Notes: generated from the letters alone by a model not told the origin. A stretch of 64,000 nt of DNA from an uncultured Bifidobacterium sp. (GCA_964594985.1 CAZQNQ010000010.1:71466-135465), one strand, 5' to 3'. Numbered from the stretch's first letter, positions 14,001 through 45,476 are shown. Numbers and translations: made by a program.

Positions 14001-16148
14001 GGTCAGGATCTGGACGGCAACGGTCTGCCGGATGCGTGGGAAATCCGCTATCGCGCCTTCGGACTGCCGCCGAATGGCGATGCGGATGGCGACGGTGCTT
14101 CCAATGCGCTGGAAGCCAAGTGGGGCACAAATCCCTTCGATGCCAATTCCAGACCTGCCGTCGCGATGGCGAAGCAAACGAACGATGTCGTCGTGGCCTG
14201 GCCGAACATTTCGGGTAAAGACCAGCGATTGTTTTCCAGCACGACGTTGACGAACTGGACGCAATTCGGTGGCGTGCCGTGGCTGAGTGGGAACACGGCC
14301 TTTGTCATCTTCACCAATCGTACGGCCCAGACGAATCGCGAGTTTTATCGCGTCAGCACAGACGATAAGGATACCGACGGTGACGGCGTGAAGGATTGGG
14401 ATGAATTTGTGCTGGGCAGCGATCCATTGCGCGCAAACAGCACTCGCGCCGCGCTGCCGCTGATTGCCAGCAACGGCACGGTCACGGGTTCGGTGGCGGG
14501 CGATTATGCCGCGTTTGTCCAGCAGATGCGCGGCGGGCCGGGCGGCAGCACGGGTTTGGTGACGCGGGCACAAGCGGCGCGTTTGCTTCAGCAGGCGACG
14601 TTCGGTCCGACGTTGCGCGAGTTGGATCGCGTGCAGCAACTCGGTATCGCGGCTTGGATTGACGATCAGATCACGAATGCGCCTGCCACGCTCCATCGGC
14701 CCTACATGGAACAGATCTACGCGGACTTCAACGGCCCGCGCACCGACCTCACCTATCTTTACAGCGAGATGGACGATTTCATCTTCGGCAACAACTGCAC
14801 GACACCGTTCGCGCGTGCGGCCTTGAGCGGGCCGGATCAGTTGCGACAGCGCGTGGCGTTTGCGCTGAGCCAGATCTGCGTCATCTCGCGGCGCGATCCA
14901 AATCTGGAAAACAAACCGCTCGCGGTGGCGGACTACTACGACATCTTCGTGCGCAACGCGTTTGGCAATTACTACGACGTGCTGCACGAAGTGACGTTGC
15001 ATCCGGTGATGGGCCGTTATCTCAGCCATATCGGCAATCAAAAAGCGCGGCCCGAGATCAACCAGTATCCCGACGAAAACTACGCGCGCGAAGTGCAGCA
15101 ACTTTTCACCATCGGCCTGTGGGAACTGAATCCCGACGGCACGCGCCAACTTGATGGCTTCGGCCAGCCAATCCCAACTTACGGCAACGCGCAGATCACC
15201 GAGTTCGCCCGCGTGTTCACCGGCTTGTGGTTCGGCGGCCAGTCGTGGGGCAATAATGGCTGGAGCGATGACGATTCCTCCGTGCCGATGCAGATGTGGG
15301 CGGAGAAACACGACTTCGACGCAAAGATGTTGTTGAAGGGCGCGACCATCCCCGCGCGAACCGCAACCGTGGAGAATGGCATGCGCGACATTGATGACGC
15401 CTTGCGCAACCTCTTCGAGCATCCGAACACCGGCCCGTTCATCGGCAGGCAATTGATTCAATTCCTCGTCACGAGCAATCCGTCGTCGAATTATGTCGCC
15501 CGCATCGCGGCCAAGTTTGCCAACGACGGCAGCGGCCAGCGCGGCAATCTCGCCACCGTCATCAAAGCGATCCTGCTCGACGAGGAAGCCCGTGATGCGC
15601 GGTGGTTTTTGGGCGCGCCGGAATTTGGCCGGTTGAAAGAGCCGGTGCATCGGGCGATGGCGATTGCCCGCACGGGCAATATCGGTCGCTACCCCAATCT
15701 GCTGTGGTGGACATGGGGCGATTTCAATTCCGCCGCTTTCCAAGAGCCGACGTATTCGCCGAGCGTGTTCAACTTTTTCCGGCCGAGTTATCAGCCGCCC
15801 GGCTTGCTGACGCAGGCAGGACTCGTCGGTCCGGCCTTCCAGATCACCGACAGCTATTCGAGCATCTCGTTCCCGAACAAGCTCTGGGAGATGACCCAGA
15901 CCGGCCTGAACTATTACAACACGTACAGTTTTCCGCCCGACTACGCGGACTTGTTGCCGGTGTCTGGCGATGCGGGATTGTTGGTGGATCAAGTGAACCT
16001 GCTGTTCTGCGGCGGCTCGATGTCCGCAGCGACTCGCGACAATCTCGTCAACGCCGTGAATCAAGTTGCGTCGTATGACCGCCTGCTGCGCATTCGGCTG
16101 GCGGTTTATCTGGCAGCGACGTGTCCGGAAGGAGCGGTGCAACGATGA
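11055..16148 (+). CDS. Giant secreted protein: repeated thrombospondin type-3-like Ca-binding repeats fused to a C-terminal DUF1800 domain
   Basis: Signal peptide MSLIRFVLLLSASLFLATPSLHA. Many DxDxDGxxDxxE units (DTDGDGLSDGMEF, DSDGDGLSDSQE and others) in at least five clusters. The C-terminal ~500 aa carry DUF1800-like ENYAREVQQLFTIGLWELNPDG and HPVMGRYLSHIGN. Confidence 0.85.
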   Translation: MSLIRFVLLLSASLFLATPSLHATPENIWLIGVDEDPFSSGYNATIATDEFSSENYVNDAPPGTIYTAANPVVDDDFYFPGTFPIGFNNLTTNRTVLNAETNRGWERALTDGDRTNRVHFFLTSPQAGAQSRLRLSFELIQGGIWLPLLGQSGEGFGIHDIAVRFRNSTGTTTLIYSNRLDRDTRIVVDFPASSVAASAGPNSIEFARVGPFTANTGYWIQFDYAQLEADTNALADADGDGLPRWWEVDNGLSDTNAADAASDKDGDGRTALQEYNNGNNSTNPNRADTDGDGLSDGMEFALGTNPNKTDTDGDSISDADEANGSPPSNPLLVDSDGDGAPDSLERRVGTNPSSAASVPTTFRGGIGIHFVSENDRNATLDMNETAGVVPQLRWNDTMPIRAWTRPSGGKADIFTPLTNQIVRSDGVIAANLTFAWTAEATDASDNAGSSDRKLMSGFIRAPNSGQATLTLSNIPFASYDLYVIVGGSYDGQRGRLRLNGSSTTDRFFRTVTTAPQKDFVEIKPGATNYPYANVVLYTNLTSSTATLNVTNVDGWAVGIHAVQIIDRSLDSDASGIPDWWEMKYALQPGSTALAAADTDGDGLSNLQEFQRGTNPRLADSDGDGLSDSQEVALDTNPLNADTDGDGLSDGAEVNAPIPTNPNLADTDGDGVSDRDESMRGTDPTYNAAAAPGYIGVVPYFQGSPSRWEWRMDNIQLVWDHGAGALAPNIWNEDYLVEFAVKNPATTDWRSLGMVLRHYNGVLTYTFHSEVTGAFSYSSQPNSSIWDSGSTDLKAGLGFSGYGPADISSRLQFRVFAQRGANSNSWSVTFTITNQTSNTLVLSRTFNNCTARGALDTGTAKWTDYNNVTNQCSMVVHQGAKLFITTNVLENLPAFASAKDSDNDGMPDVWEDANLFNKFSAADATLDADGDGLNNRDEFLAGTNPRNPDSDGDGISDSLERANASNPLLASSKPEFTGQTLPSGQDLDGNGLPDAWEIRYRAFGLPPNGDADGDGASNALEAKWGTNPFDANSRPAVAMAKQTNDVVVAWPNISGKDQRLFSSTTLTNWTQFGGVPWLSGNTAFVIFTNRTAQTNREFYRVSTDDKDTDGDGVKDWDEFVLGSDPLRANSTRAALPLIASNGTVTGSVAGDYAAFVQQMRGGPGGSTGLVTRAQAARLLQQATFGPTLRELDRVQQLGIAAWIDDQITNAPATLHRPYMEQIYADFNGPRTDLTYLYSEMDDFIFGNNCTTPFARAALSGPDQLRQRVAFALSQICVISRRDPNLENKPLAVADYYDIFVRNAFGNYYDVLHEVTLHPVMGRYLSHIGNQKARPEINQYPDENYAREVQQLFTIGLWELNPDGTRQLDGFGQPIPTYGNAQITEFARVFTGLWFGGQSWGNNGWSDDDSSVPMQMWAEKHDFDAKMLLKGATIPARTATVENGMRDIDDALRNLFEHPNTGPFIGRQLIQFLVTSNPSSNYVARIAAKFANDGSGQRGNLATVIKAILLDEEARDARWFLGAPEFGRLKEPVHRAMAIARTGNIGRYPNLLWWTWGDFNSAAFQEPTYSPSVFNFFRPSYQPPGLLTQAGLVGPAFQITDSYSSISFPNKLWEMTQTGLNYYNTYSFPPDYADLLPVSGDAGLLVDQVNLLFCGGSMSAATRDNLVNAVNQVASYDRLLRIRLAVYLAATCPEGAVQR

Positions 16149-16157
16149 CAAGCGAAT

Positions 16158-16255
16158 TCAACATCGAACATCCAACATCCAACGCTCAAGACCCAAGACG
16201 ACGCGCGCGTCAGCATCATTGGATGTTCGATGTTGGAAGTTGGGTGTTGGATGTT
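16158..16255. repeat. Periodic-arm hairpin repeat (ACATCCAAC units; family E)
   Basis: AACATCGAACATCCAACATCCAAC... faces ...TTGGATGTTCGATGTTGGAAGTTGGGTGTTGGATGTT. A second copy at 57439-57533. Fills the DUF1800-DUF1501 spacer. Confidence 0.75.
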
Positions 16256-16269
16256 TCCCCTTTTGCCTT

Positions 16270-17733
16270 ATGAAACCCATTTCCCGCCGTGGCTTTCTCA
16301 AACAACTGAACTGCGCTGCCGTCGGCACGTCGGCGATCCTCAACACGCTGCTCAATCTCAAGCTGGCCAACAGCGTCGCCGCGCAGGGCGGACCGCTCGA
16401 CAACAAAGCGCTCGTCTGCATTTTTCTCAGCGGCGGCATGGACTCGTTCAACCTGCTCGTCCCGTGGGAACAGTCGGCTTACAACACTTACTCGGTAACC
16501 CGTGGCGCTTTCGGCAGCGACGGCGGCCTCGCGCTCAATCGTAATGCGCTGCGCCAACTCGCCGCGCCCTCGGCAAACTTCGGGCTGCATCCGTCGTGCG
16601 TAAACTTGCAGGCGATGGCCAATGGCACCGGCGCATTCTCGGGCAAGCGGCGGCTTTCGTTTGTTTCCAATGTCGGCACGCTGGTGCAGCCGATCACCAA
16701 GGCACAGTTCAACGCGTGGGAAAACGGCCAGAACGCGGCGCTGCCTGTGCCGAAGGCGTTGTTCTCGCACAGCGATCAGATCGAGCAATGGCAGACCGCC
16801 GTGCCGCAGGGGTTGGCGCAGTTGAGCGGTTGGGCGGGACGTTGCGCGGATATTTTGCACGCCTACTACAACTCGGGAAACAACTCGATGAGCATTTCGC
16901 TCGGCGGCAACAACGTGTTTCAGGTTGGCAACACGACACAACAATTCGTGATCACGCCGGGCGGCGCGTTGTCGTTCGAAGGGAACACCGGCGGCGCGAA
17001 CCCGAATCCGCTCCAGATCAAGAACGCGGCGTTGCGCAATACGCTCGACCAGACTTACACGAATCTGCTGACCGAAAGTTTTTCCCAGCTCACCCGCCAG
17101 AGCGATGACGCGCAGTTACTGTTTCAGACCCAGTTTGATTCTGACGCCGCCAAACTTGGCCCAATGGTGGACGCATTGTTCCCAACGACGAATTATGTCG
17201 CTACGACGCTCAAGGCGGTGGTGAAAACAATTAAGATCCGCAGCCAGCTTGGGCTCCGCCGGCAGACATTCTTCGTGCAATACGGCGGCTGGGATCATCA
17301 CGGCGAATTGCTCAACACGCAGGCGGGAATGCTTGCTTACCTTGATACAGCCATCGGCGCGTATCAGCAGGCGCTCGAAATGCTCGGATTGCAGGACGAC
17401 GTCATCACCTTCACGGCATCGGATTTCAGTCGCACGCTCCGCTCAAACGGTCGCGGCACGGACCACGCCTGGGGCGCAAACGCGATGGTCTTCGGCGGCA
17501 AGATTGATGGCGGCAAAGTCTTCGGCTCGTATCCCGACCTGACGTTGGATGGGCCGAACGATGTGGGTCGCGGCGGACGCTTGCTGCCCAGCACGGCGGC
17601 GGACTTGTATTTCGCGGAATTGCTGCGCTGGTTTGGCGTCGCCCCGGGGAACATGCCTTACGTGCTGCCAAACGTGGCGAACTTTTGGAATCCCAATTCG
17701 GGAACTGCACCGCTAGGCTTCGTGGCGTCATGA
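16270..17733 (+). CDS. DUF1501 domain-containing protein (Tat-signal, sulfatase-like fold)
   Basis: Start chosen at MKPISRRGFLKQLNCAAVGTS (twin-arginine signal). GGWDHHG and GRGTDHAWG motifs. Canonical partner of DUF1800. Confidence 0.88.
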   Translation: MKPISRRGFLKQLNCAAVGTSAILNTLLNLKLANSVAAQGGPLDNKALVCIFLSGGMDSFNLLVPWEQSAYNTYSVTRGAFGSDGGLALNRNALRQLAAPSANFGLHPSCVNLQAMANGTGAFSGKRRLSFVSNVGTLVQPITKAQFNAWENGQNAALPVPKALFSHSDQIEQWQTAVPQGLAQLSGWAGRCADILHAYYNSGNNSMSISLGGNNVFQVGNTTQQFVITPGGALSFEGNTGGANPNPLQIKNAALRNTLDQTYTNLLTESFSQLTRQSDDAQLLFQTQFDSDAAKLGPMVDALFPTTNYVATTLKAVVKTIKIRSQLGLRRQTFFVQYGGWDHHGELLNTQAGMLAYLDTAIGAYQQALEMLGLQDDVITFTASDFSRTLRSNGRGTDHAWGANAMVFGGKIDGGKVFGSYPDLTLDGPNDVGRGGRLLPSTAADLYFAELLRWFGVAPGNMPYVLPNVANFWNPNSGTAPLGFVAS

Positions 17734-32088: not shown

Positions 32089-32139
32089 GAAAAAGCCCCG
32101 GCGCTAACCGGGGCTTTCGCGGATCGTGGTCGTTGCGGA

Positions 32140-33081
32140 TTATTTCATCCGGTCGAAATTCTTCTGGAGAATCTGCCAGTCCTTGAGGCCCTGCACTTTT
32201 TCCTGCATGGACTTGTGGATCTCGGCTTCCTTCGTGTTCTTCGTCGGCTTGGACTTCTTGAAGAAGATGCCGAAGCGGCCCGGGAACGGTTCGTCGGCCA
32301 GCTTGTAGGCGGCCATCTCGTCGGTCACGTCGTGGTCGGCGGGGACGAGGTTGAACACGCCGCCTTTGCGCGGGTTGCTCGCGTCGAACGCGCCTTCGTA
32401 GAACTCGACGCATTCGCTCAGGCATTCGATGAAGCTGAAGCCGTCGTGATCCATCGCGGCTTCCATCATCTGGAGGACGTGATTCGGATTGGTGTGCGTG
32501 GTGCGGGCCACAAACGTCGCGCCCGCCGCGATCGCCTGCTTCATCGGGTTGATCGGATAATCCACCGCGCCCCATTGGTCGGTCTTGCTCTTGAACCCGA
32601 GCGGCGACGTGGGCGAGGTCTGTTTCTTCGTCAGGCCGTAAACCCAGTTGTCCATCACGCAATAGGTCATCTTGATGTTCTTGCGCGCGGTGTGATTGAA
32701 ATGATTGCCGCCGATGGAGAAGGCGTCGCCGTCGCCACCGAACACGAACACGTGCAGGTCCGGACGCGAGAGTGAAATGCCGCTCGCGAACGGCAGCGCG
32801 CGGCCATGGATAAAGTGCGCGCCGTGGGCTTGCACGAAATACGGGAAGCGGCTCGAGCAACCGATGCCCGCGACCGTGGTGATCTTTTCGTGATGCATCT
32901 TGCGCTTCTCGATCAGCTTGAAATAAAGCGCGAGTACGGAGAAATCGCCGCAACCGGGGCACCATGTCGGGTGATCGGCAGCGACTTCTTTCTTCGTCAG
33001 GCCCTTGCGCTCTTCGGGCGTAGGGACGCGAGGGGTCAAAACAGCGGGACTCGTGGGAGCTTCGGTAAGTATCTGGCTCAT
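32140..33081 (-). CDS. korB: 2-oxoglutarate/2-oxoacid:ferredoxin oxidoreductase beta subunit
   Basis: TPP-binding WCPGCGDFSVL and GGDGDAFSIGGNH. Confidence 0.88.
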   Translation of the reverse strand: MSQILTEAPTSPAVLTPRVPTPEERKGLTKKEVAADHPTWCPGCGDFSVLALYFKLIEKRKMHHEKITTVAGIGCSSRFPYFVQAHGAHFIHGRALPFASGISLSRPDLHVFVFGGDGDAFSIGGNHFNHTARKNIKMTYCVMDNWVYGLTKKQTSPTSPLGFKSKTDQWGAVDYPINPMKQAIAAGATFVARTTHTNPNHVLQMMEAAMDHDGFSFIECLSECVEFYEGAFDASNPRKGGVFNLVPADHDVTDEMAAYKLADEPFPGRFGIFFKKSKPTKNTKEAEIHKSMQEKVQGLKDWQILQKNFDRMK

Positions 33082-33099
33082 ATTAAAAAGTGGTTGAAA

Positions 33100-34923
33100 T
33101 TATTGTTTGCGCAGACCTTCGGAGACGTTGGTCTTCACGCGTTCGAGGATTTCTTTGACCTTGAACGTAAGGCCGTCGGTCTTGTTGATGCCGCGGATCT
33201 TTGGATCGCAATAACGGGAGCGGAGCAAGCCGCCAAGCTGGCCGAAACCATAGAGGCCTTCGTCGTTCATCTCGACCACGAGGATATGGTTGAAGCCGGA
33301 GAAAATGTTTTCCAAGTCCGGCGGCAACGGGTTCAGGTGCTTGATGTGAATTGAGGACACGCTGTCGCCGGCGGCGCGGGCGCGGTCCACGGCTTCCTTG
33401 ATCGGACCTTGGGTCGAACCCCAGCCGACGAGGAGAACATTGCCTTCGCTCGGGCCGTAAATCTTCGGCGTGGGCAACGTCGCCCCGAGCGCCTGCAGTT
33501 TCTTGCGGCGCTTCGCCATCATCTGCATGTGCAACTTCGGCGAGCCGGTCGGATGACCGAGTTCGTCGTGCTCGAGACCGGTGACAATCGGATATTTACC
33601 GCTCTGAATCCATGTGCCCGGCGGAACGTGCTGCGTGATGCCATCCTTGGCGGAGAGATCGTAAGGCTTGTGATCGGCGACGGGTTTGAAATCGGGGGAA
33701 ATGTCCTGGCAAACTTTTTCGAGATTCGGCTCGGTGAAGGCTTCGATGCGGGTGGCGATGCCTTGGTCGGTGAGAAGAATTACGGGAACGCTGTATTTCT
33801 TCGCAATGTTGACGGCTTCAATCGCGGAGTAAAAACAATCTTCCACGTCCGCCGGCGCAATCACCACGCGCGGAGAATCGCCGTGACCGCCGAAGCAGGC
33901 GATGTTCAAGTCGGACTGCTCGATGTTCGTCGGCATACCCGTCGAAGGTCCACCGCGTTGCACGTCCACAATGACGAGCGGCATTTCCGCCATCACCGCC
34001 CAACCGAGCGCTTCGGTCTTGAGCGAGATGCCCGGACCGCTGGAGCCGGTGACCGCCACGCGACCGGCGTAGCTGCCGCCGATGGCCATCGAGATGGCCG
34101 CGATTTCGTCCTCAGTCTGCATGAACGTGCCGCCATATTTGGGCAGTTCGCGCCGCAATAATTCCATGATGTCGGACCACGGGGTGATCGGGTAACCTGC
34201 GCCGAAACGCACGCCCGCCGCGATGAGGCCGTAGCCGAGCGCTTCATTGCCGTTCATCACGATTTGATGCCCGCCCTTGCTCTGGCTATCAACAAACTTG
34301 AAGGTTTCCAGCACGTTGCCAAGCGAGTGCCCATAACCCGCGTGGAAAGCCGAGAGCGCGTTTTTGACGATGCTCTGATCTTTGCCGGTGAAGCGTTCGG
34401 TGATCAATCTTTCCAGCTTCGGCAGGTCGAGCGCGAACATCTTGGCGATCAGTCCAAGGGCATAGATGTTTTTGCCTTTATCCTTGGCCGTGCCGCCGAT
34501 GGCTTCGACCGTCAGACCGGAAATCGGGATGCCCAGATGATGGTAATCCTTCTGCCACTCAGGCTTCGCTTCGACATGGTCGGAATCATAGAGCACAATG
34601 CCGCCCTTCTTGAGCGAGTTGATGTGGCCTTCGTAGGAATGCTGATAGAACGCCAGCAAGACGTCGGCTTCATCACCGGAACTGAGGACTTCGCCCGAAC
34701 CGATGCGAACCTGGAAGATGGACGGCCCGCCGGAAATCGTGGCCGGAATCGTCATGAACGTCATGACTTCCTGTTCGCTGCGGCCGGCGAGGCGGGCGAG
34801 GAAACCACCGATGGCCTGGATGCCGTCCTGGGAATTGCCGGCGATGCGGATGACGGCCTCGGAAATCTGGGCGACTTTCGGCGCTCCACCCGCGTTTGCG
34901 GCTGCTACTGTTGAATCACTCAT
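33100..34923 (-). CDS. korA: 2-oxoglutarate/2-oxoacid:ferredoxin oxidoreductase alpha subunit
   Basis: 607 aa with GNEALGYGLIAAGVRFGAGYPITP and SGPGISLKTE. Immediately upstream of korB. Confidence 0.88.
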   Translation of the reverse strand: MSDSTVAAANAGGAPKVAQISEAVIRIAGNSQDGIQAIGGFLARLAGRSEQEVMTFMTIPATISGGPSIFQVRIGSGEVLSSGDEADVLLAFYQHSYEGHINSLKKGGIVLYDSDHVEAKPEWQKDYHHLGIPISGLTVEAIGGTAKDKGKNIYALGLIAKMFALDLPKLERLITERFTGKDQSIVKNALSAFHAGYGHSLGNVLETFKFVDSQSKGGHQIVMNGNEALGYGLIAAGVRFGAGYPITPWSDIMELLRRELPKYGGTFMQTEDEIAAISMAIGGSYAGRVAVTGSSGPGISLKTEALGWAVMAEMPLVIVDVQRGGPSTGMPTNIEQSDLNIACFGGHGDSPRVVIAPADVEDCFYSAIEAVNIAKKYSVPVILLTDQGIATRIEAFTEPNLEKVCQDISPDFKPVADHKPYDLSAKDGITQHVPPGTWIQSGKYPIVTGLEHDELGHPTGSPKLHMQMMAKRRKKLQALGATLPTPKIYGPSEGNVLLVGWGSTQGPIKEAVDRARAAGDSVSSIHIKHLNPLPPDLENIFSGFNHILVVEMNDEGLYGFGQLGGLLRSRYCDPKIRGINKTDGLTFKVKEILERVKTNVSEGLRKQ

Positions 34924-37731: not shown

Positions 37732-39129
37732 ATGATTTCCATTTCACAACTTCAAGAGTGGGTGCGAACGGGTGAGTCTGAGACGCTGGAATTCAAGCGC
37801 ACAACCGGCGAACGCCGCGCTGGCACACAGACACTTTGTGGGATGCTCAATCATCGTGGGGGACGGGTGCTCTTTGGCGTTGAGCCGGATGGCCGCATCA
37901 TCGGCCAAATGGTTTCGGATCATACGGTCGAAGAAGTAGCGCAAGAGTTAAAGGAAATTGACCCGCCAGTCTTTCCTTCCATCGAGCGGGTAGATGTAAC
38001 TGAGGGGCGGCAGGTGTTGGTGGTAACCGTTTCAGCAGGAACAAACCGCCCCTACAACTACAAAGGACAGGCATACCGACGCGTGGGGAACACAACTCCA
38101 GAACTCTCGGGCCACGGTTTTCAACAGATGTTGTTGGAGCGATTGCATGGCGAGAGGCGTTGGGAGAATGAGCCTGCGGAAGGGTGGGCGGTGACCGATT
38201 TGGAAGCTTCCGAAATCATTCGGACCCTGGAAGAATCCATCCGGCGCGGTCGAGCGGATGACCCCGGCGTGCGCGATCCCGCAGAGGTGTTGCGTGGTTT
38301 AGGATTGATGCGGGGCGGACAATTGTTGCGGGCTGCGGTGGTTTTGTTCGGAAAAGCCGAACAACTGGAACCGCGGATGCCGCAGTGTTTGTTGCGTGTG
38401 GCACGCTTTCGTGGTCGAGATAAGACCGAGTTCCTTGATAACCGGCAGTTTCACGGCAACGCGTTTGATCTCTTGCTGCGGGCGGAGCGATTTTTACGGG
38501 AAAATCTGCCGGTCGCAGGTCGCATCCAACCAGGCTTGTTCGAGCGTGTGGACGATCCGCTCTATCCGCCAGTGGCGTTGCGGGAGACGCTGGCCAATGC
38601 GGTTTGCCATCGAGATTACAGTATTGGCGGCGGTTCAATTGCCGTGGCACTTTTCGATGATCGGCTGGAGATCACTTCGTCGGGCACGCTTCACTTCGGA
38701 TTAACAACAGAAGCACTGTTCCAACCTCACGAGTCGCTGCCATGGAATCCGCTCATCGCACGGGTGTTTTATCGGCGCGGCGTAATCGAAGCATGGGGCC
38801 GGGGCACCATCAAGATCGCGGAGTTAGTTGCGAGAGCCGGACTGCCTCAACCTGAAATTGAAGAGGCGGGCGGCTGTGTGGTGGTGCGGTTTCGTCCCAG
38901 TCGTTATGTTGCACCATCGCGGGTCGCTCAAGATGTGACTGAGCGCCAACGACGAGTTCTTGAAGTCTTGGCGGCCGGGGCCAGCGGCGGGATAGCGCTC
39001 CGGGAAATTGCGGCTCAGTTGACCAATCATACGCCACGGGCACTTCGGGAAGACCTGAGTGTTTTGCAGACTTTGGGTTTAGCAAAAACAACAGGTTGGG
39101 GCGCTGGTGCAAAGTGGAAACTTCGGTAG
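37732..39129 (+). CDS. AlbA_2 (Schlafen-like) DNA-binding domain / HATPase_c_4 / wHTH protein (often annotated 'RecG-like' or 'ATP-binding protein')
   Basis: N-terminal GESETLEFKRT...LCGMLNHRGGRVLFGVEPDG (AlbA_2), central REtLANAVCHRDY-type motif (LRETLANAVCHRDYSIGGGSIAV) and a C-terminal wHTH-like RQRRVLEVLAAG...LREIAAQL. Confidence 0.8.
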   Translation: MISISQLQEWVRTGESETLEFKRTTGERRAGTQTLCGMLNHRGGRVLFGVEPDGRIIGQMVSDHTVEEVAQELKEIDPPVFPSIERVDVTEGRQVLVVTVSAGTNRPYNYKGQAYRRVGNTTPELSGHGFQQMLLERLHGERRWENEPAEGWAVTDLEASEIIRTLEESIRRGRADDPGVRDPAEVLRGLGLMRGGQLLRAAVVLFGKAEQLEPRMPQCLLRVARFRGRDKTEFLDNRQFHGNAFDLLLRAERFLRENLPVAGRIQPGLFERVDDPLYPPVALRETLANAVCHRDYSIGGGSIAVALFDDRLEITSSGTLHFGLTTEALFQPHESLPWNPLIARVFYRRGVIEAWGRGTIKIAELVARAGLPQPEIEEAGGCVVVRFRPSRYVAPSRVAQDVTERQRRVLEVLAAGASGGIALREIAAQLTNHTPRALREDLSVLQTLGLAKTTGWGAGAKWKLR

Positions 39130-40823: not shown

Positions 40824-41090
40824 CTATTTGATGTCCCACACCAAATCTGCGACTTCGACGTTAAGCGCTCTGGCAATTTTGAGCAGCGAGCCAACGGAAA
40901 TTTCCATGGTGCCGCGCTCGACCGCACCGATGAAGTTATGGTGCAGGTCGGCTTTCTCCGCCAATTTTTCCTGAGTCAACCCAACTTTTTTGCGATGGGA
41001 ACGGATCGTTTCACCCAAAATTCGGCGGTGATTTGGCCTCGTTGACACAAATGTTAGCAAGCGCAGACCAACACACCACGCTCCACACAT
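40824..41090 (-). CDS. XRE-family helix-turn-helix transcriptional regulator
   Basis: LGETIRSHRKKVGLTQEKLAEKADLHHNFIGAVERGTMEISVGSLLKIARAL is a canonical HTH_3. Divergent from the 41196 gene. The true start may be the GTG near 41048. Confidence 0.8.
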   Translation of the reverse strand: MCGAWCVGLRLLTFVSTRPNHRRILGETIRSHRKKVGLTQEKLAEKADLHHNFIGAVERGTMEISVGSLLKIARALNVEVADLVWDIK

Positions 41091-41195
41091 TAAACTGTGT
41101 TTTTACTTGCAGACGCTTGGCAAAATGATAGAACAAATCTGTTCATAACAAACCAAACCCGGGTTGTTTTAACGGGGAAATCAAACTGAAATATC

Positions 41196-43919
41196 ATGAA
41201 AATCTTGCGCCAAAAGCTGATTGTCGTGCTTGCGTCACTACTGTTCATTGTCGCGTCAAGTCAGGCCATTGAAGGACTGAAATTACAAATCATTTGTCCC
41301 GATGTTGTGTTGTCGTGGCCGAGTGTGGAGGGGGCAACTTACATTGTTCAGTATCGGCCCACGCTGGATCCGATTACGCCGTGGCAAACGCTGACCAACA
41401 ATCTGCCCGCAGGGACGGGAACGAACGTGACATTTTTTGTCCACTCGAACCGGGTTGATTGCTCGGCGGGGCAGATTTTTGGCATGGGGCTTTTGCCAGA
41501 TGGCGGCAACGCAATGGTTTCATCAGCCGCATCGTTGTCTCCGGAAGAAAGAAGGCAGCTCAAACAGGCCCGGGAGACGCAACGCCTGGCTGAACTATTG
41601 GTGCAGTGCGAATTAGAGCAACGCGAGCCATACGAATGGGAGTTGAAGAATGAACCGCCACCACCGCCATCAACTGAAGAAGTTCGAGCCAAAATCCTCG
41701 CTGCGATGGAAAAGAGACAGGCTGGCTTGAACACCGCTGGCAGCGTCGGTTTGGCACCGCAATTTTCTTCTGCGGCAATCAACAGCGCCAACAGTTGCGC
41801 CTCGTATGTTGCCAGCAACAACAATTCCGGGTTTTACCGTGTATTCTGTCCTGCACCCGTTGCTCAACTTGATGTGTTTGGCGTCGAGCAAGGTTCAACC
41901 ATGAATCAGCTCGATATTTTGCTCAATGATACGGACCCGGATGACAATCCAATTATGCTGTCCCACGTTCAACCGGCAGGTCACGGGGAAATAGAATATA
42001 GCGACGATGCCAGCATCTTTCGCTACACGCCGACAAATACTTTCTCGGGCTTGGAGACTTTTTCGTACGCCATCACGAACGATGTGGGGGGATCAAACAC
42101 GGCCACAGTATTTGTGTTTGTCAACGCAGCGGGAAACAACCAGCCGTACACCCTGCCGTTAGAACTGACATTGCAGACAAATCAAACGGCAATTTCCTTC
42201 CCCATCCTGACCAACGCGGCAGACCCGGACAACGATGCGCTTCAACTTGTCGTCATTGCGCCACCCACCTACGGAACGGTCACGACCAACACCAACAGTG
42301 AACTCGTTTATTCGTGTACGTCGTACTACGTTGCTCAGGATTCGTTCTTCTATGTTTTGACCGACGGACGCGGCGGATTTGTAAAACAACCCGTCATCAT
42401 CAATCCGCAGGACGATGACGGAGATGAAATTCCCGATGAATGGGAGTTGCAGCACGACCTTGACCCGACTCTAAACGATGCGGCGGATGATCCTGATGAA
42501 GACGGGTTGCCGAACCTCGCCGAATACAAGCTGGATACCTGCCCTTGGTCTTCTGACAGCCCGCTCAACTTGAGCCACATTGCCATCAATCAACCTTTCC
42601 GCGAATTTGCGCTCATTCCAGTGCCGCTCAAAAGCCACATCAAAAAGCCCGCTCTTTCCATGTTGCTCAATGGCAGCCGCGCCAACGGGTCACTGGTGAA
42701 ACGGGCCGACGGATGTTGGTATCTCAACTGGGACACCGGCTATCTGGCTAATGGCCCATACTCCCTTGCGCTGGAATTGGAGTACCGCGCTGACCCGCAG
42801 CCGGGAGATTTGCCGGTGGTGGGAGCAACCGTGCCAGTCATCGTGACCAATGATGTGACCTTTAGCCAATTAGCCTCCACTTTCAGTGATTTCCTTGTGA
42901 TTGACGTGAAGCTCGCCTTGCAAAGCGCTGACTGGCGGATTGAGTTCTTTGACGAAGCAAACCAATACCTTGGCTATTTTTACGGCACAACATCGGATGG
43001 CACAATTCAAGGCGCATGGGATTTGACTGACGGCCAAAACCAGATTGCCTTCAGTCATGTCCGGACGGATTTTTATTTTGCTCCACATCAGGAAATTTCG
43101 CTCTTGGATGATGCCCCTCCGGGTGGTAATCAAAGGAAAGCCCGGCGTTGGTTCATCAAACAAATCCCCGGCGGAATCGGAAACACTTTCGTGGTCGCTT
43201 GGGGGTGGGATGCTTACACCACCAGCTTTAACAACAACCGCACCAGACTAATGCTCAATGGCGTCATTAACATTCTCGCCAATCCGGCTCGAGACGATGA
43301 GTATTTTCTGCGGCCTGGGGCCAACTTATTTGATGGCAATGCGTTTCGCTATGATGATGATTTGGACAAGGAAACATTACTTTCGGCTTTGAAAGCCAGC
43401 GATAGTGGCAATTTCTTTTGGTTTGGACATGGCGATGTTGATGTGCTGCAAGGAGATCACAAGCGTTCATCAATCCCTCCTGACCTTGTAGAAAACACGT
43501 TGCAAAACAAGAGACACCGCTCAACAAAAAGAGTTCCTGCCGTGGACAAGCACCCGTATCGCTTGGTCATTCTGAATGCTTGCAAAATGTATCATCCGAA
43601 TTGGGCTCATGCGTTTGGGATTGATTATTCGACAAATGGAACTACCAGCGATGTTTATGCCTATTACCAGCATGGACGGCAATCACAGGCGTTTGTTGCT
43701 TGGACAAATAACATTCAGGTGCCAAAGCTTGGCAATTTTAACTACCGTAGCGATGAATATGCAGTCGGGCTAGCGGCGCTATTTTCTCGATGGATGGATG
43801 GTTATGCTTTGGAAAACTGTCTTGGTTGGTATGAATACTACATGGACAATTACAATTTTAGCGGTCATGACTCTTGGAAAATATCCGGCACGGCTTACAT
43901 GTGGCGGACGGCTCCATGA
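41196..43919 (+). CDS. Large secreted protein: cadherin-like/VCBS-like repeats, TSP3-like Ca-binding motifs and a C-terminal caspase/CHAT-like (clan CD) candidate peptidase domain
   Basis: Signal peptide MKILRQKLIVVLASLLFIVASSQA. Repeats DTDPDDNPIML..YTPTNTFSGLETFSYAITNDVGG and ADPDNDALQLV..YSCTSYYVAQDSFFYVLTDGRGG. TSP3-like DDDGDEIPDEWE and DPDEDGLPNLAEY. FFWFGHGD (His745) and LVILNACK (Cys796) lie 51 residues apart. Confidence 0.75.
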   Translation: MKILRQKLIVVLASLLFIVASSQAIEGLKLQIICPDVVLSWPSVEGATYIVQYRPTLDPITPWQTLTNNLPAGTGTNVTFFVHSNRVDCSAGQIFGMGLLPDGGNAMVSSAASLSPEERRQLKQARETQRLAELLVQCELEQREPYEWELKNEPPPPPSTEEVRAKILAAMEKRQAGLNTAGSVGLAPQFSSAAINSANSCASYVASNNNSGFYRVFCPAPVAQLDVFGVEQGSTMNQLDILLNDTDPDDNPIMLSHVQPAGHGEIEYSDDASIFRYTPTNTFSGLETFSYAITNDVGGSNTATVFVFVNAAGNNQPYTLPLELTLQTNQTAISFPILTNAADPDNDALQLVVIAPPTYGTVTTNTNSELVYSCTSYYVAQDSFFYVLTDGRGGFVKQPVIINPQDDDGDEIPDEWELQHDLDPTLNDAADDPDEDGLPNLAEYKLDTCPWSSDSPLNLSHIAINQPFREFALIPVPLKSHIKKPALSMLLNGSRANGSLVKRADGCWYLNWDTGYLANGPYSLALELEYRADPQPGDLPVVGATVPVIVTNDVTFSQLASTFSDFLVIDVKLALQSADWRIEFFDEANQYLGYFYGTTSDGTIQGAWDLTDGQNQIAFSHVRTDFYFAPHQEISLLDDAPPGGNQRKARRWFIKQIPGGIGNTFVVAWGWDAYTTSFNNNRTRLMLNGVINILANPARDDEYFLRPGANLFDGNAFRYDDDLDKETLLSALKASDSGNFFWFGHGDVDVLQGDHKRSSIPPDLVENTLQNKRHRSTKRVPAVDKHPYRLVILNACKMYHPNWAHAFGIDYSTNGTTSDVYAYYQHGRQSQAFVAWTNNIQVPKLGNFNYRSDEYAVGLAALFSRWMDGYALENCLGWYEYYMDNYNFSGHDSWKISGTAYMWRTAP

Positions 43920-43932
43920 AGAAAGGCTGTTA

Positions 43933-44280
43933 ATGCAAACTAAAAACACGCCACCAGACGCAACTGAGGTTTTGATCAAAAAGAAACGGCACGGCCAACA
44001 ACTGACGACCTCCGCGCTTTGCCTTGCGGTTGTTTTCTTTTTGAGCTTCTCGCCCTATGCCCCAACAACGCGGAACTTGATCTGGTATGAAATACAATGC
44101 TGGGGGCTTGTTGCCGTGCCGCTGGTTCTGTCTAGTTTTGCATTCATCCACTTGTTGCCTGTGCTGGTGCGCGGGGTAGGGACGCAACGAATATCGGCGG
44201 TTATTTTGCTGATCGTGTCAGGTTACTATGCCTATCAAGGTTGGGAGGAAATCATCTTTCACTATATGATCAACCCCTAA
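43933..44280 (+). CDS. Small integral membrane protein (3 TM), unknown family
   Basis: Start at MQTKNTPPD, 14 nt after the upstream stop. Three hydrophobic segments. AT-richer codon usage like its neighbours. Confidence 0.55.
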   Translation: MQTKNTPPDATEVLIKKKRHGQQLTTSALCLAVVFFLSFSPYAPTTRNLIWYEIQCWGLVAVPLVLSSFAFIHLLPVLVRGVGTQRISAVILLIVSGYYAYQGWEEIIFHYMINP

Positions 44281-44302
44281 AATTTCAGACGCCTCTATTA
44301 CA

Positions 44303-44644
44303 TTGATGAAAACGGAGGATTCAACCCAAGAAACCCGCCAGTCGGCGAATGATGCGAATATCACCCGGGTGGTGTTCACCGTAATTTTGCTGTTGTCCCT
44401 GTTCATCATCGCCAAGTCGTTCATTGCGACTCACAATGTGACTCAGTGGAGCGATGAGATTCAGATGATGTTCATCCGTGAGCAAACCGAAGCCGGGAAG
44501 CGGGGCTATTCAATTACAGAATACCTCACCCGGCTGGATGACATCCAGAAACAGTGGAAAGTCATGCGTCATGTCAGCGTTGGCTTGGCGGCGCTATCAG
44601 CCGTTGGGGTCTTTTTGGCGGGCAAACGCAGGAACAAACAATAG
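44303..44644 (+). CDS. Small bitopic membrane protein (2 TM flanking a ~55-aa loop), unknown family
   Basis: 113 aa with TM1 VVFTVILLLSLFIIAKSFI and TM2 VSVGLAALSAVGVFLAG. Confidence 0.55.
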   Translation: MMKTEDSTQETRQSANDANITRVVFTVILLLSLFIIAKSFIATHNVTQWSDEIQMMFIREQTEAGKRGYSITEYLTRLDDIQKQWKVMRHVSVGLAALSAVGVFLAGKRRNKQ

Positions 44645-44657
44645 TCGCAAGGCATTC

Positions 44658-45476
44658 ATGGACATCCTCTACATTTCACTTGCCTACAAATACGTGATGC
44701 TGGCGTTGATGCTGGCGGAGGTGAATCACGCGGGCGGCAAACTCGAAATTCCCAACTGGCAGCCGATTACTTTCGCGCAAGTCGAGACCTACAACATTTC
44801 GCCGCCACGAATGCGCGCGGGCGGCAGTCTGGATACCACCAATGGAGTTTTTGGCTTTGGTGAAAATAAATTGCAATTCATACAGTGGCCGGAGCCGAAT
44901 TCGGACTTGCCGCTGAGGGAGCGGCAGATGCGCTGGTCAAAGTTGGAATCCCTTGTTGACACCAACGGAGCCTATCAACTGGCGACCAACTGGTTGACGA
45001 GATTGGAAGTGGATGTGTCCGCTTTGGAGAAAAAGCATCCGGTGTCCGTGTTGCAACAATTCTTTTATCCCGGCGGGGACGTCAACCAGCAACGGATTTT
45101 ACTGCCACGCTTTGAAGTGCGTTGGGGTAAAAATCCATCTCTGCCTGCGATTTGGGTTTCCATTTATGGGCCAACCAAAACGCCGCTTTTCATCCGGCAG
45201 GAGGACGGTTCGTTCATTCGGCGTCCCGAAGTGGTAAAGCCGGAAGCCATTGCGACACTGCTTTCAATCACCAACGCTACGTTTGCCGGATGGACCATGA
45301 CTCAAAAATCCAATCTCGTCGTGCAGTCCGCTGGCAATGGGTATCCGACGCTGGTGTTTCCCGAAGTGATTTCTGAGGGAAAGACGCCAAAACAATCCAC
45401 GCTGCTTATGAAGCCCAAGCCGCCTGTCGTCCCCGCCAAAAAGACTAGGATTTTGCCAGCGGCAAACCGGGAGTAA
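44658..45476 (+). CDS. Hypothetical protein, unknown family
   Basis: Start at MDILYISLAYKYVMLALMLAE (N-terminal hydrophobic anchor or signal). 272 aa. Last gene of the AT-richer cluster. Confidence 0.55.
   Translation: MDILYISLAYKYVMLALMLAEVNHAGGKLEIPNWQPITFAQVETYNISPPRMRAGGSLDTTNGVFGFGENKLQFIQWPEPNSDLPLRERQMRWSKLESLVDTNGAYQLATNWLTRLEVDVSALEKKHPVSVLQQFFYPGGDVNQQRILLPRFEVRWGKNPSLPAIWVSIYGPTKTPLFIRQEDGSFIRRPEVVKPEAIATLLSITNATFAGWTMTQKSNLVVQSAGNGYPTLVFPEVISEGKTPKQSTLLMKPKPPVVPAKKTRILPAANRE

What the first reader, a model, noticed from the sequence alone, without database searches (positions are those of the whole stretch)
40824..45476. AT-richer island: XRE regulator divergent from a four-gene cluster of unknown function led by a 907-aa secreted protein
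From about 41.1 to 45.5 kb the sequence is visibly lower in G+C than the flanking core genes. Four co-directional genes are separated by only 13-22 nt:
1. A signal-peptide protein with two cadherin-like/VCBS-like repeats, TSP3-like Ca sites and a candidate clan-CD peptidase domain.
2. A 3-TM protein of 115 aa.
3. A 2-TM protein of 113 aa.
4. A 272-aa protein with an N-terminal hydrophobic anchor.

I recognise no family for genes 2-4. An XRE HTH gene is transcribed divergently from a shared ~105-bp AT-rich control region. Composition, tight operon structure, a dedicated regulator and an exported protease with membrane partners together look like a horizontally acquired, self-contained system. 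Candidate roles include a surface or contact-dependent effector with processing and immunity-like membrane components. I cannot match it to any described system.
Basis: partly seen in the sequence, partly recalled or inferred. Interest (0 to 1): 0.7.

Follow-up and report, generated by a model that had tools for sequence, protein, structure and literature searches.

The report
Mobile exported caspase-fold protease operon
This AT-rich island is a mobile gene cassette of Verrucomicrobiota that encodes a large exported adhesin-like protein ending in an unclassified caspase/gingipain-fold cysteine protease domain, together with a dedicated partner protein of unknown fold, small membrane proteins and its own repressor; the pieces are real and recurrent, but what the protease acts on is still unknown.

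Summary
Positions 40.8-45.5 kb are the most AT-rich and compositionally most deviant stretch of the window (GC 0.507 against 0.593). They carry an XRE gene divergent from four tightly packed genes.

- **g1:** a Sec-exported protein with cadherin-like and TSP3 repeats. Its last 240 residues fold confidently into a clan-CD (caspase/CHAT/PorU-like) domain, with a near-invariant His745 and an invariant Cys796. The domain matches no Pfam, NCBIfam or PDB sequence family.
- **Wider family:** the domain defines about 650 protein clusters. It is almost always the C-terminal domain, behind variable adhesin-type N-terminal parts.
- **g4:** it follows the protease gene in 41 of 48 loci and co-diverges with it. 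It is extracytoplasmic and has no detectable structural neighbour.
- **g2 and g3:** g2 belongs to a recurrent family of small 3-TM proteins, often in tandem copies. g3 is specific to this lineage.
- **Mobility:** the module is AT-richer than its flanks in 20 of 20 genomes. In a syntenic relative it sits between two oxidoreductase genes that are 18 nt apart in this window.

Best reading (0.45): an exported protease effector neutralised by a cognate partner, g4, under XRE control. This is a new variant of protease-inhibitor or toxin-immunity modules. Function is inferred, not shown.

The parts
40824..41090 (-). XRE-family helix-turn-helix regulator. It is 88 aa as the longest ORF. Homologs are 71-72 aa, so the true start may be the internal GTG at 41048.
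   Evidence: PF01381 HTH_3 at 51 bits against a cut-off of 23. PADLOC 'control protein' models hit at E 9e-15. Homologous XRE genes lie divergently upstream of g1 homologs in at least 14 of 39 loci.
41091..41195 (.). Shared divergent control region, 105 bp, GC 0.362. Candidate operators are the palindromes ACACATTAAACTGTGT (41085-41100, overlapping the annotated XRE start) and GAACAAATCTGTTC (41131-41144).
   Evidence: The ACACA-N6-TGTGT palindrome recurs at the same place in L024, and other loci carry their own palindromes there. Binding is inferred, not tested.
41196..43919 (+). g1: a 907-aa exported modular protein. Residues 1-24 are the signal peptide (cleavage after SSQA, read from the sequence). 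A conserved N-terminal beta-domain and a charged linker follow, then the repeat and C-terminal modules listed below.
41853..42395 (+). g1 residues 220-400: two Big_9 / cadherin-like repeats.
   Evidence: Pfam Big_9 1.5e-28, Cadherin_5 9e-20, Cadherin_4 3e-13.
42396..42557 (+). g1 residues 401-454: TSP3-type acidic Ca-binding repeats. This is the start of the conserved C-terminal module.
   Evidence: Weak NCBIfam hits at 406-454. BLAST matches to the TSP3_bac repeats of the 1697-aa protein in this window. PF18884 is present in homologs.
42558..43202 (+). g1 residues 455-669: two beta-sandwich domains that precede the protease domain.
   Evidence: AlphaFold2 model, pLDDT 91 and pTM 0.91. Foldseek matches to MG/Ig-type sandwiches. 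Conserved together with the protease domain.
43203..43916 (+). g1 residues 670-907: clan-CD (caspase/gingipain/CHAT-fold) cysteine peptidase-like domain. The candidate catalytic residues are His745 (codon 43428-43430, motif FFWFGHG) and Cys796 (codon 43581-43583, motif LVILNAC).
   Evidence: Best Foldseek matches are SAVED-CHAT 8tl0 (E 1.6e-6, probability 1.0) and PorU 6za2 (3.7e-6). The His and the Cys each follow a predicted beta-strand. His is present in 189 of 191 aligned domains and Cys in 200 of 200. No Pfam or PDB sequence match.
43933..44280 (+). g2: a 115-aa, roughly 3-TM inner-membrane protein. It belongs to a recurrent family with the motif LLPVLxRG after TM2.
   Evidence: Hydropathy. 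Homologs lie between g1 and g4 in L003, L007, L011, L024, L028, L040, L049, L050, L052 and L055, with 1-3 tandem copies; one also follows g1 in L009 and one precedes g4 in L010. P0247 is 76% identical.
44303..44644 (+). g3: a 112/113-aa 2-TM protein, a lineage-specific accessory gene.
   Evidence: Hydropathy. Homologs occur only in L024 (54%) and as g3-g2 fusions in L025 and P0248.
44658..45476 (+). g4: a 272-aa partner protein. It has a conserved N-terminal helix (probable signal-anchor), a two-lobed alpha/beta domain (residues about 30-237) and a disordered Lys/Pro-rich tail.
   Evidence: 45 homologs, none named. AlphaFold2 pLDDT 86. No significant neighbour in PDB or BFVD. Encoded directly downstream of the protease gene in 41 of 48 loci. 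Signal peptides in distant homologs, with complementary hydrophobicity of the helix.

Best explanation
The island is a self-contained mobile cassette. All named sources of its homologs are Verrucomicrobiota.

**g1.** It is exported by the Sec pathway. Its variable N-terminal part (cadherin-like repeats here; Ig, LamG or VWA domains in relatives) is an adhesin-type scaffold. Its invariant C-terminal module consists of TSP3 Ca-binding repeats, two beta-sandwiches and a clan-CD cysteine peptidase domain of about 240 residues. That domain represents a previously unclassified family with a His745/Cys796 dyad.

**g4.** It is encoded immediately downstream and co-inherited with the protease domain. 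It is an extracytoplasmic protein, membrane-anchored in this locus, that most likely binds and neutralises the protease domain. In other words it would act as a cognate inhibitor or immunity factor, and possibly as a folding factor. This would protect the producer's envelope during export and from protease released by sister cells.

**g2 and g3.** The small 3-TM g2 proteins (and g3 here) are accessory inner-membrane components, either additional immunity factors or a docking platform.

**XRE.** It represses the divergent promoters through palindromic operators.

**Shown:** gene layout, atypical composition, mobility, fold, dyad conservation, synteny, and the export signals of g4 homologs.

**Inferred:** proteolytic activity, g4 binding and inhibition, the role of g2/g3, XRE operator binding, and the target of the protease.
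For: - **Fold and dyad.** The model is confident (pLDDT 91). The top Foldseek matches are CHAT and PorU, both clan CD. The Gly-His and the Cys each sit just after a beta-strand and are conserved in 189 of 191 and 200 of 200 domains.
- **Position of the domain.** It ends within 10 residues of the C-terminus in 98.8% of 161 proteins, behind variable adhesin-type N-terminal parts.
- **g4 linkage.** g4 lies downstream in 41 of 48 loci, often with gaps of -4 to +21 nt. Pairwise identities of the protease domain and g4 correlate at r = 0.76.
- **g4 location.** 11 homologs carry classical signal peptides ahead of an amphipathic helix. The 68 homologs without a signal peptide have a hydrophobic helix instead (KD 1.34 against 0.47, p = 3e-7).
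- **Immunity-like patterns.** Orphan g4 genes occur in L020, L021 and L023. L012 has tandem g4 paralogs, and L040, L050 and L055 have tandem g2 paralogs.
- **Mobility.** The module is AT-richer than its flanks in 20 of 20 loci. An empty-site comparison with L003 supports insertion.
- **Precedents.** C-terminal caspase-like toxin domains in Sec-exported polymorphic toxins (PMC3482391). Exported Bacteroides C10 proteases co-transcribed with exported inhibitors (PMC3462683).
Against: - There is no direct evidence that g4 binds or inhibits g1. A complex prediction could not be run.
- g4 is larger (about 250-300 aa) and as conserved as the protease. Typical immunity proteins are small and fast-evolving.
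- Across the family the C-terminal domain is constant and the N-terminus varies. No alternative toxin tips on the same scaffold were seen, although this was not searched for.
- No dedicated outer-membrane delivery system lies next to the module.
- Seven of the 48 loci lack a detectable g4. L009 has only a g2-like gene.
- The Foldseek output does not show whether His745 and Cys796 superpose on the template catalytic residues.
Confidence: 0.45

Rival explanations
1. The clan-CD domain acts in cis rather than as an effector. It would either autoprocess g1 (as the CPD of MARTX toxins does) or work as a PorU/GPI8-like transpeptidase that attaches the adhesin part to, or releases it from, a cell-envelope acceptor. 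In this reading g4 and the small TM proteins form the docking or acceptor platform.
For: PorU, a clan-CD sorting transpeptidase, is among the best structural matches. The N-terminal parts are adhesin-type domains. The domain is strictly C-terminal, as sorting modules are. g4 is membrane-anchored and g2 is a membrane protein. Ca-binding TSP3 repeats lie directly upstream and could gate activity outside the cell. Caspase-like autoprocessing domains in large surface proteins are documented.
Against: Known autoprocessing domains need no co-inherited partner. Orphan g4 genes and tandem g4 and g2 paralogs are hard to explain for a docking platform. Sorting enzymes are normally encoded once per genome, not inside each cargo protein.
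Confidence: 0.25
2. g1 is an ordinary secreted degradative or nutritional protease-adhesin, gingipain-like in role. g4 is a dedicated folding or secretion chaperone rather than an inhibitor. The cassette then confers a metabolic or colonisation trait, not antagonism or self-protection.
For: The same fold evidence applies. g4 is as conserved as the protease domain (mean identity 0.38 against 0.41), as expected for a chaperone. The host genome is rich in exported glycoside hydrolases, for example GH28 next door.
Against: Orphan and duplicated g4 copies. A dedicated repressor and patchy, mobile distribution are more typical of potentially harmful cargo. No chaperone-like fold was recognised.
Confidence: 0.15
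3. The C-terminal domain is a catalytically inert structural or binding module, and the cluster is simply a surface adhesin with accessory genes of unrelated function.
For: No activity data exist. No sequence-level match to any peptidase family was found. Two of the 191 domains have Arg or Lys in place of the His.
Against: The Gly-His and the Cys are near-invariant at the positions expected for clan CD, across roughly 25-100% sequence identity. g4 linkage is tight.
Confidence: 0.05

Closest known systems
Clan CD cysteine peptidases, in particular CHAT-domain proteases (SAVED-CHAT, PDB 8tl0) and the gingipain-like PorU (PDB 6za2)
   Same: Alpha/beta caspase-type fold by Foldseek (E 1.6e-6 and 3.7e-6, probability 1.0). 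His precedes Cys in the sequence. The His follows a beta-strand and a Gly, and the Cys follows a hydrophobic beta-strand. Like CHAT domains, it sits at the C-terminus of multidomain proteins.
   Different: No detectable sequence similarity to CHAT, C25, C13, C14, C11 or C80 models, or to any PDB chain. The protein is Sec-exported with cadherin/TSP3 scaffolds, not cytoplasmic signalling architectures. The hosts are named as Verrucomicrobiota MAGs, and no T9SS (Por) genes were seen in the surveyed neighbourhoods. It has a dedicated downstream partner, g4.
Polymorphic toxin systems with C-terminal 'Tox-Caspase' domains (Zhang et al. 2012, PMC3482391)
   Same: Signal-peptide (T2SS/Sec) export, repeat-rich scaffold, a caspase-like domain as the C-terminal-most domain, a conserved gene directly downstream, orphan and tandem copies of downstream genes, and patchy mobile distribution.
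   Different: Here the C-terminal module is constant and the N-terminus varies. No alternative toxin tips or cassette arrays were seen. g4 matches no described immunity family and is unusually large and conserved. Toxicity is untested.
Cysteine protease plus co-transcribed cognate inhibitor operons (staphopain-staphostatin, SpeB-Spi, Bacteroides Bfp/Btp C10 proteases with exported Bfi/Bti inhibitors; PMC3462683)
   Same: An exported cysteine protease gene is transcriptionally and translationally coupled to a small neighbouring gene whose product resides where premature activity would be harmful. In Bacteroides the inhibitors carry signal peptides or lipoprotein signals, as g4 homologs do.
   Different: Those proteases are papain-like (clan CA) and their inhibitors are beta-barrels of 110-140 aa. 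Here the protease is clan-CD-fold. g4 is a 272-aa alpha/beta protein with no structural match. Small 3-TM proteins are additional components.

Membership tests
Clan CD cysteine peptidases (caspase-hemoglobinase fold) | Alpha/beta/alpha sandwich of the caspase/gingipain type | tested here: met
   AlphaFold2 model with pLDDT 91. Top Foldseek PDB matches are SAVED-CHAT 8tl0 (five chains, E 1.6e-6 to 9e-6) and PorU 6za2. The order of secondary-structure elements, beta-alpha-(beta)-alpha-beta(His)-alpha-beta(Cys)-alpha-beta-alpha-beta, was read.
Clan CD cysteine peptidases (caspase-hemoglobinase fold) | Catalytic dyad with His before Cys. The His follows a beta-strand and adjoins a Gly. The Cys follows a hydrophobic beta-strand. 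| tested here: met
   FFWFG-H745-G follows strand 283-289 of the model, and LVILNA-C796 follows strand 336-340. His in 189 of 191 and Cys in 200 of 200 aligned domains. Both are invariant in 34 distant long members.
Clan CD cysteine peptidases (caspase-hemoglobinase fold) | Superposition of the His and Cys on the template catalytic residues, and measurable peptidase activity | not testable with these tools
No biochemistry is available.
Existing sequence families of clan CD (Pfam CHAT PF12770, Peptidase_C25, C13, C14, C11, C80) | Match to the family HMM above its threshold | tested here: not met
   No Pfam hit for residues 455-907 at E <= 0.1. None at E <= 10 for 20 domain-only members. None in 34 distant full-length members at 1e-3. 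No NCBIfam hit. No PDB sequence hit with the profile.
Polymorphic toxin systems (Zhang et al. 2012) | N-terminal export signal, repeat scaffold, and the toxin as the C-terminal-most domain | tested here: met
   Signal peptide read from the sequence. Cadherin/TSP3 repeats. The domain ends within 10 residues of the C-terminus in 98.8% of 161 proteins.
Polymorphic toxin systems (Zhang et al. 2012) | Cognate immunity gene immediately downstream that neutralises the toxin | tested here: inconclusive
   A conserved downstream partner, g4, is present in 41 of 48 loci, and orphan and tandem copies exist. Neutralisation is untested, and g4 matches no known immunity family.
Polymorphic toxin systems (Zhang et al. 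2012) | Polymorphism: different C-terminal toxin tips on a conserved N-terminal scaffold, often with spare cassettes | not tested
   All searches were seeded with the C-terminal module or with g4. Among the hits it is the N-terminus that varies (437-3540 aa). No search was made with the g1 N-terminal region.
XRE / Cro-C1 type HTH regulators | HTH_3 domain above the Pfam gathering score | tested here: met
   PF01381 at 51.3 bits against a cut-off of 23, plus HTH_31 and HTH_26 above their cut-offs.
Staphostatin-type protease inhibitors | Eight-stranded beta-barrel of about 110-140 aa encoded next to a papain-like protease | tested here: not met
   g4 is 272 aa and mixed alpha/beta. It has no significant PDB match, and the protease is clan-CD-fold. 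Only the genetic logic is shared.
T9SS PorU sortase system | Bacteroidota T9SS context (PorV/PorZ/PorQ, cargo CTDs) | tested here: not met
   All named sources are labelled Verrucomicrobiota, apart from one contig labelled Bifidobacterium that is probably mislabelled. Neighbourhoods show no Por genes. Resemblance is at fold level only.

The most novel reading that the evidence does not exclude
g1, g4 and g2 constitute a previously unrecognised mobile, Sec-dependent antagonism or self-protection system of Verrucomicrobiota. Its parts would be a new clan-CD peptidase family used as an envelope-targeting effector on interchangeable adhesin scaffolds, a new-fold extracytoplasmic immunity/inhibitor protein (g4), and small 3-TM co-immunity proteins, all switched by a cassette-borne XRE repressor.
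Probability: 0.25. Interest if true: 0.7.

Novelty: new variant of a known kind. Interest (0 to 1): 0.5.

Why it matters
Verrucomicrobiota are abundant in soil, freshwater and guts, yet their surface and secreted proteins are mostly unannotated. This work points to three things.

- **A large unclassified protease family.** About 650 clusters at 50% identity carry a clan-CD-fold domain with a conserved catalytic dyad at the C-terminus of adhesin-like proteins.
- **An obligate partner.** g4 is co-inherited with the protease domain, and its confident model has no neighbour in PDB or BFVD.
- **A mobile unit.** The whole cassette, repressor included, moves between genomic sites.

If g4 is an inhibitor or immunity protein, it would be a new class of clan-CD protease inhibitor and a handle on competition or surface remodelling in this phylum. 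If the domain instead acts in cis, it would be a new self-contained protein-sorting or release device. Either way the family deserves a Pfam/MEROPS entry and a biochemical test.

Tried and rejected
Searches that found nothing:
- Pfam, NCBIfam, PADLOC and PHROGs on g2, g3 and g4. Only XRE and the cadherin repeats hit.
- HMMER against PDB sequences, with the single sequence and with profiles A2, A3 and A4.
- Foldseek of the g4 model against PDB and BFVD. The best hits were RseB/MucB/LolA-like and PepSY-like proteins at E > 0.02, and one phage protein of unknown function at 1.6e-3 with TM 0.16. I treat these as not significant.
- Carriage on phages or plasmids. These collections hold few Verrucomicrobiota.
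- Integration hallmarks: no tRNA, no Rfam family, and no flanking direct repeats around the island or at the L003 insert junctions.
- Taxonomy or names for distant family members through a cluster look-up.
- Literature searches for a described system of this kind. They returned only the general polymorphic-toxin survey and protease-inhibitor precedents.

Ideas rejected:
- The 1697-aa protein at 11055-16148 is not a paralog of g1. It shares only TSP3 repeats and ends in DUF1800.
- The whole four-gene set is not the conserved unit. g3 is confined to the window lineage.
- The low GC is not merely an amino-acid composition effect, because GC3 is also depressed.

Weak results:
- A g2+g3 concatenated homology search returned only two proteins.
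- Promoter and terminator consensus scans were no better than shuffled sequence for promoters, and only weakly enriched for terminators.

Full report
**1.

ORF listing gives an 88-aa XRE gene on the minus strand (40824-41090). Four plus-strand genes follow:
- g1, 41196-43919, 907 aa
- g2, 43933-44280, 115 aa
- g3, 44303-44644, 113 aa
- g4, 44658-45476, 272 aa

The gaps between them are 13, 22 and 13 nt. The divergent intergenic region is 105 bp with GC 0.362.

The island has GC 0.507 against 0.593 for the rest of the window. It is the minimum of all island-sized sliding windows and the strongest tetranucleotide outlier. Third-codon-position GC is 0.55-0.68, and 0.47 in the last domain of g1. 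The flanking GH28, NifU, LysE and CDP-alcohol phosphatidyltransferase genes have 0.72-0.87. The deviation is therefore not just an amino-acid effect.

**2. What the genes are**

XRE has a clear HTH_3 domain.

g1 has the following parts:
- a signal peptide, MKILRQKLIVVLASLLFIVASSQA, read from the sequence;
- two Big_9/cadherin-like repeats;
- a TSP3-type acidic repeat stretch;
- a C-terminal half with no Pfam, NCBIfam or PDB sequence match.

An AlphaFold2 model of residues 455-907, built on 47 sequences, is confident (pLDDT 91, pTM 0.91). It shows two beta-sandwiches followed by an alpha/beta domain. Foldseek against the PDB puts the SAVED-CHAT protease (8tl0, E 1.6e-6) and PorU (6za2, 3.7e-6) on top. 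Both are clan-CD caspase/gingipain-fold enzymes.

The motifs FFWFG-H745-G and LVILNA-C796 each follow a predicted beta-strand. That is the clan-CD arrangement. Across every domain I could align, the His is present in 189 of 191 and the Cys in 200 of 200. Both are invariant in 34 distant, long family members. Sequence-level membership of CHAT, C25 and the other existing families was tested and not met.

g2, g3 and g4 hit nothing in four HMM libraries. The g4 model is confident (pLDDT 86). It has a long N-terminal helix, two beta-sheet/helix lobes and a disordered Lys/Pro-rich tail. It has no significant neighbour in PDB or BFVD.

**3. The family and the conserved unit**

The g1 C-terminal half has 63 close homologs and g4 has 45. 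All named sources are Verrucomicrobiota MAGs, including Limisphaerales, Verrucomicrobiales and Udaeobacter.

A profile of the protease domain alone finds 652 clusters at 50% identity (E <= 1e-3). The proteins range from about 230 to 3540 aa. The domain ends within 10 residues of the C-terminus in 98.8% of the 161 proteins that cover its end. The N-terminal parts carry Ig, cadherin, TSP3, LamG or VWA domains.

I analysed 92 fetched loci with my own ORF calls and HMMs. The results were:
- The sandwich-plus-protease module is always the C-terminus of the protein.
- A g4 homolog lies downstream on the same strand in 41 of 48 de-duplicated loci that have enough downstream sequence. The gap is often -4 to +21 nt.
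- A divergent XRE lies upstream in at least 14 of 39 loci.

Small 2-3-TM proteins lie between g1 and g4 in many loci. They form one family with g2, share the motif LLPVLxRG, and occur in one to three tandem copies. g3 is found only in the window lineage and L024, and fused to a g2-like domain in L025 and P0248. The conserved core is therefore the g1 C-terminal module plus g4, frequently with g2 and XRE. g3 is an add-on.

**4. Where g4 acts**

Distant g4 homologs (L017, L019, L021, L022, L023, the second copy in L012, and P0108) have classical Sec signal peptides ahead of the conserved helix 'LAYR..ML.EAN'. Homologs without a signal peptide start at that helix, and there it is markedly more hydrophobic. 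The mean KD is 1.34 (n = 68) against 0.47 (n = 11), Mann-Whitney p = 3e-7.

This complementary pattern argues that the family works outside the cytoplasm. It also argues that the window's g4 uses its helix as a signal-anchor. This is an inference from the comparison.

**5. Mobility**

The module is AT-richer than its flanks in all 20 loci with adequate flanks, by 6.6 GC points on average. The flanking genes differ from locus to locus.

The decisive evidence is locus L003 (GCA_038214755.1), which is syntenic with this window around a 2-oxoacid:ferredoxin oxidoreductase:
- The alpha/gamma gene is 85% identical to window 33106-34923.
- The beta gene is 81% identical to window 32134-33111.
- In the window these two genes are 18 nt apart.
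- In L003 they are separated by an insert of about 4.9 kb that carries a glyoxalase gene, XRE, g1, a g2-like gene and g4.

The cassette therefore moves with its regulator. I found no integrase, tRNA, flanking repeats, or phage or plasmid copies. The mechanism of movement is unknown.

**6. How it most likely works**

- **Shown.** An exported modular protein ends in a clan-CD-fold domain with a conserved dyad. It has an obligately linked, co-diverging (r = 0.76), extracytoplasmic partner. Membrane proteins recur in the module. It has a cassette-borne XRE gene, with palindromes in the control region (41085-41100 and 41131-41144). The first palindrome is conserved in L024.
- **Inferred.** The domain is an active cysteine peptidase. 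g4 binds and neutralises it, protecting the producer's envelope. XRE represses the operon.
- **Support for the neutralising role.** Orphan g4 genes (L020, L021, L023), tandem g4 paralogs (L012) and tandem g2 paralogs. Precedents are C-terminal 'Tox-Caspase' domains in Sec-exported polymorphic toxins (PMC3482391) and exported Bacteroides C10 proteases co-transcribed with exported inhibitors (PMC3462683).
- **Against it.** g4 is large and as conserved as the protease. The C-terminal domain is constant rather than polymorphic. No delivery apparatus is linked. Binding is untested.

I put this reading at about 0.45. The fold and dyad assignment on its own is at about 0.85.

The main rival (0.25) is a cis-acting role: autoprocessing, or PorU/GPI8-like transpeptidation that anchors or releases the adhesin, with g4 and g2 as the platform. 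A chaperone role for g4 with a purely degradative protease (0.15) and an inert domain (0.05) are less likely.

**7. Comparison and novelty**

The protease domain works like, and folds like, clan-CD peptidases, but it belongs to none of the existing sequence families. The genetic logic resembles protease-inhibitor operons and toxin-immunity pairs, but g4 and g2 match no described inhibitor or immunity family.

I rate it a new variant of a known kind. It is a solid, recurrent and mobile system of unknown biological target. It is worth a family definition and a simple biochemical and toxicity test, but it is not categorically new. Interest 0.5.

Noticed in passing
window 37732-39129 (+): A 465-aa protein with Schlafen AlbA_2 and HATPase_c_4 domains lies two genes upstream of the island. 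It also has low GC3 (0.567) and weak PADLOC hits to pAgo-associated proteins (E 4.5e-6). It may be a second accessory or defence-type gene next to the cassette.
   Followed up: partly
window 11055-17733 (+): A 1697-aa protein with five TSP3_bac repeats and a C-terminal DUF1800 domain is followed by a DUF1501 protein. It shares only the TSP3 repeats with g1.
   Followed up: partly
window 44609-44622 and 45432-45445: A perfect 14-nt inverted repeat (GTCTTTTTGGCGGG / CCCGCCAAAAAGAC) brackets g4, lying in the 3' ends of g3 and g4. About 0.05 such pairs are expected by chance in 5.4 kb. Its significance is unknown.
   Followed up: no
window 32140-34923 (-) versus L003 5335-13029: The two 2-oxoacid:ferredoxin oxidoreductase genes are adjacent here (18-nt gap). 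In a syntenic relative they are split by a 4.9-kb insert that carries a glyoxalase gene plus the XRE-g1-g2-g4 cassette. No repeats were seen at the junctions.
   Followed up: yes
L014 (= contig CAZLOH010000006.1, same as L005): The record title says 'uncultured Bifidobacterium sp.'. The contig, at about 61% GC, carries the Verrucomicrobiota-type module and typical flanks, so this is probably a mislabelled or mis-binned MAG.
   Followed up: no
L012 9938-11447; L040, L050, L055; L025 6873-7529 and P0248: L012 has tandem g4 paralogs, one without and one with a signal peptide. Several loci have two or three tandem g2 paralogs. Some proteins are g3-g2 fusions. These are signs of rapid turnover of the small downstream genes.
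   Followed up: partly
window 45370-45476 (g4 tail) and alignment A3: The disordered C-terminal tail of g4 keeps a short basic motif, roughly (K/R)-(T/V)-(R/K/H)-T/I-L/V-P-P, across many homologs. It could be a docking or pseudo-substrate site for the protease.
   Followed up: no
L007 7129-9860 / L008 588-3319: The g1 homolog is split into a 276-aa ORF and a 619-aa ORF. The upstream piece still matches the g1 profile, which suggests a frameshift or assembly error.
   Followed up: no
L009 7950-9598: In a 4.5-Mb contig, a short g1 homolog (437 aa, one sandwich plus the protease domain) is followed by a g2-like 103-aa membrane protein but no g4. ExbB/ExbD/TonB genes lie a few kb downstream, and ExbB/ExbD genes also occur near the module in L007.
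   Followed up: partly
window 44584-44608 (+): A terminator-like hairpin with a T-run lies inside the 3' end of g3, just upstream of g4. Terminator-like sites in the region are only weakly enriched over shuffles (12 against 6.6 +/- 2.6).
   Followed up: no
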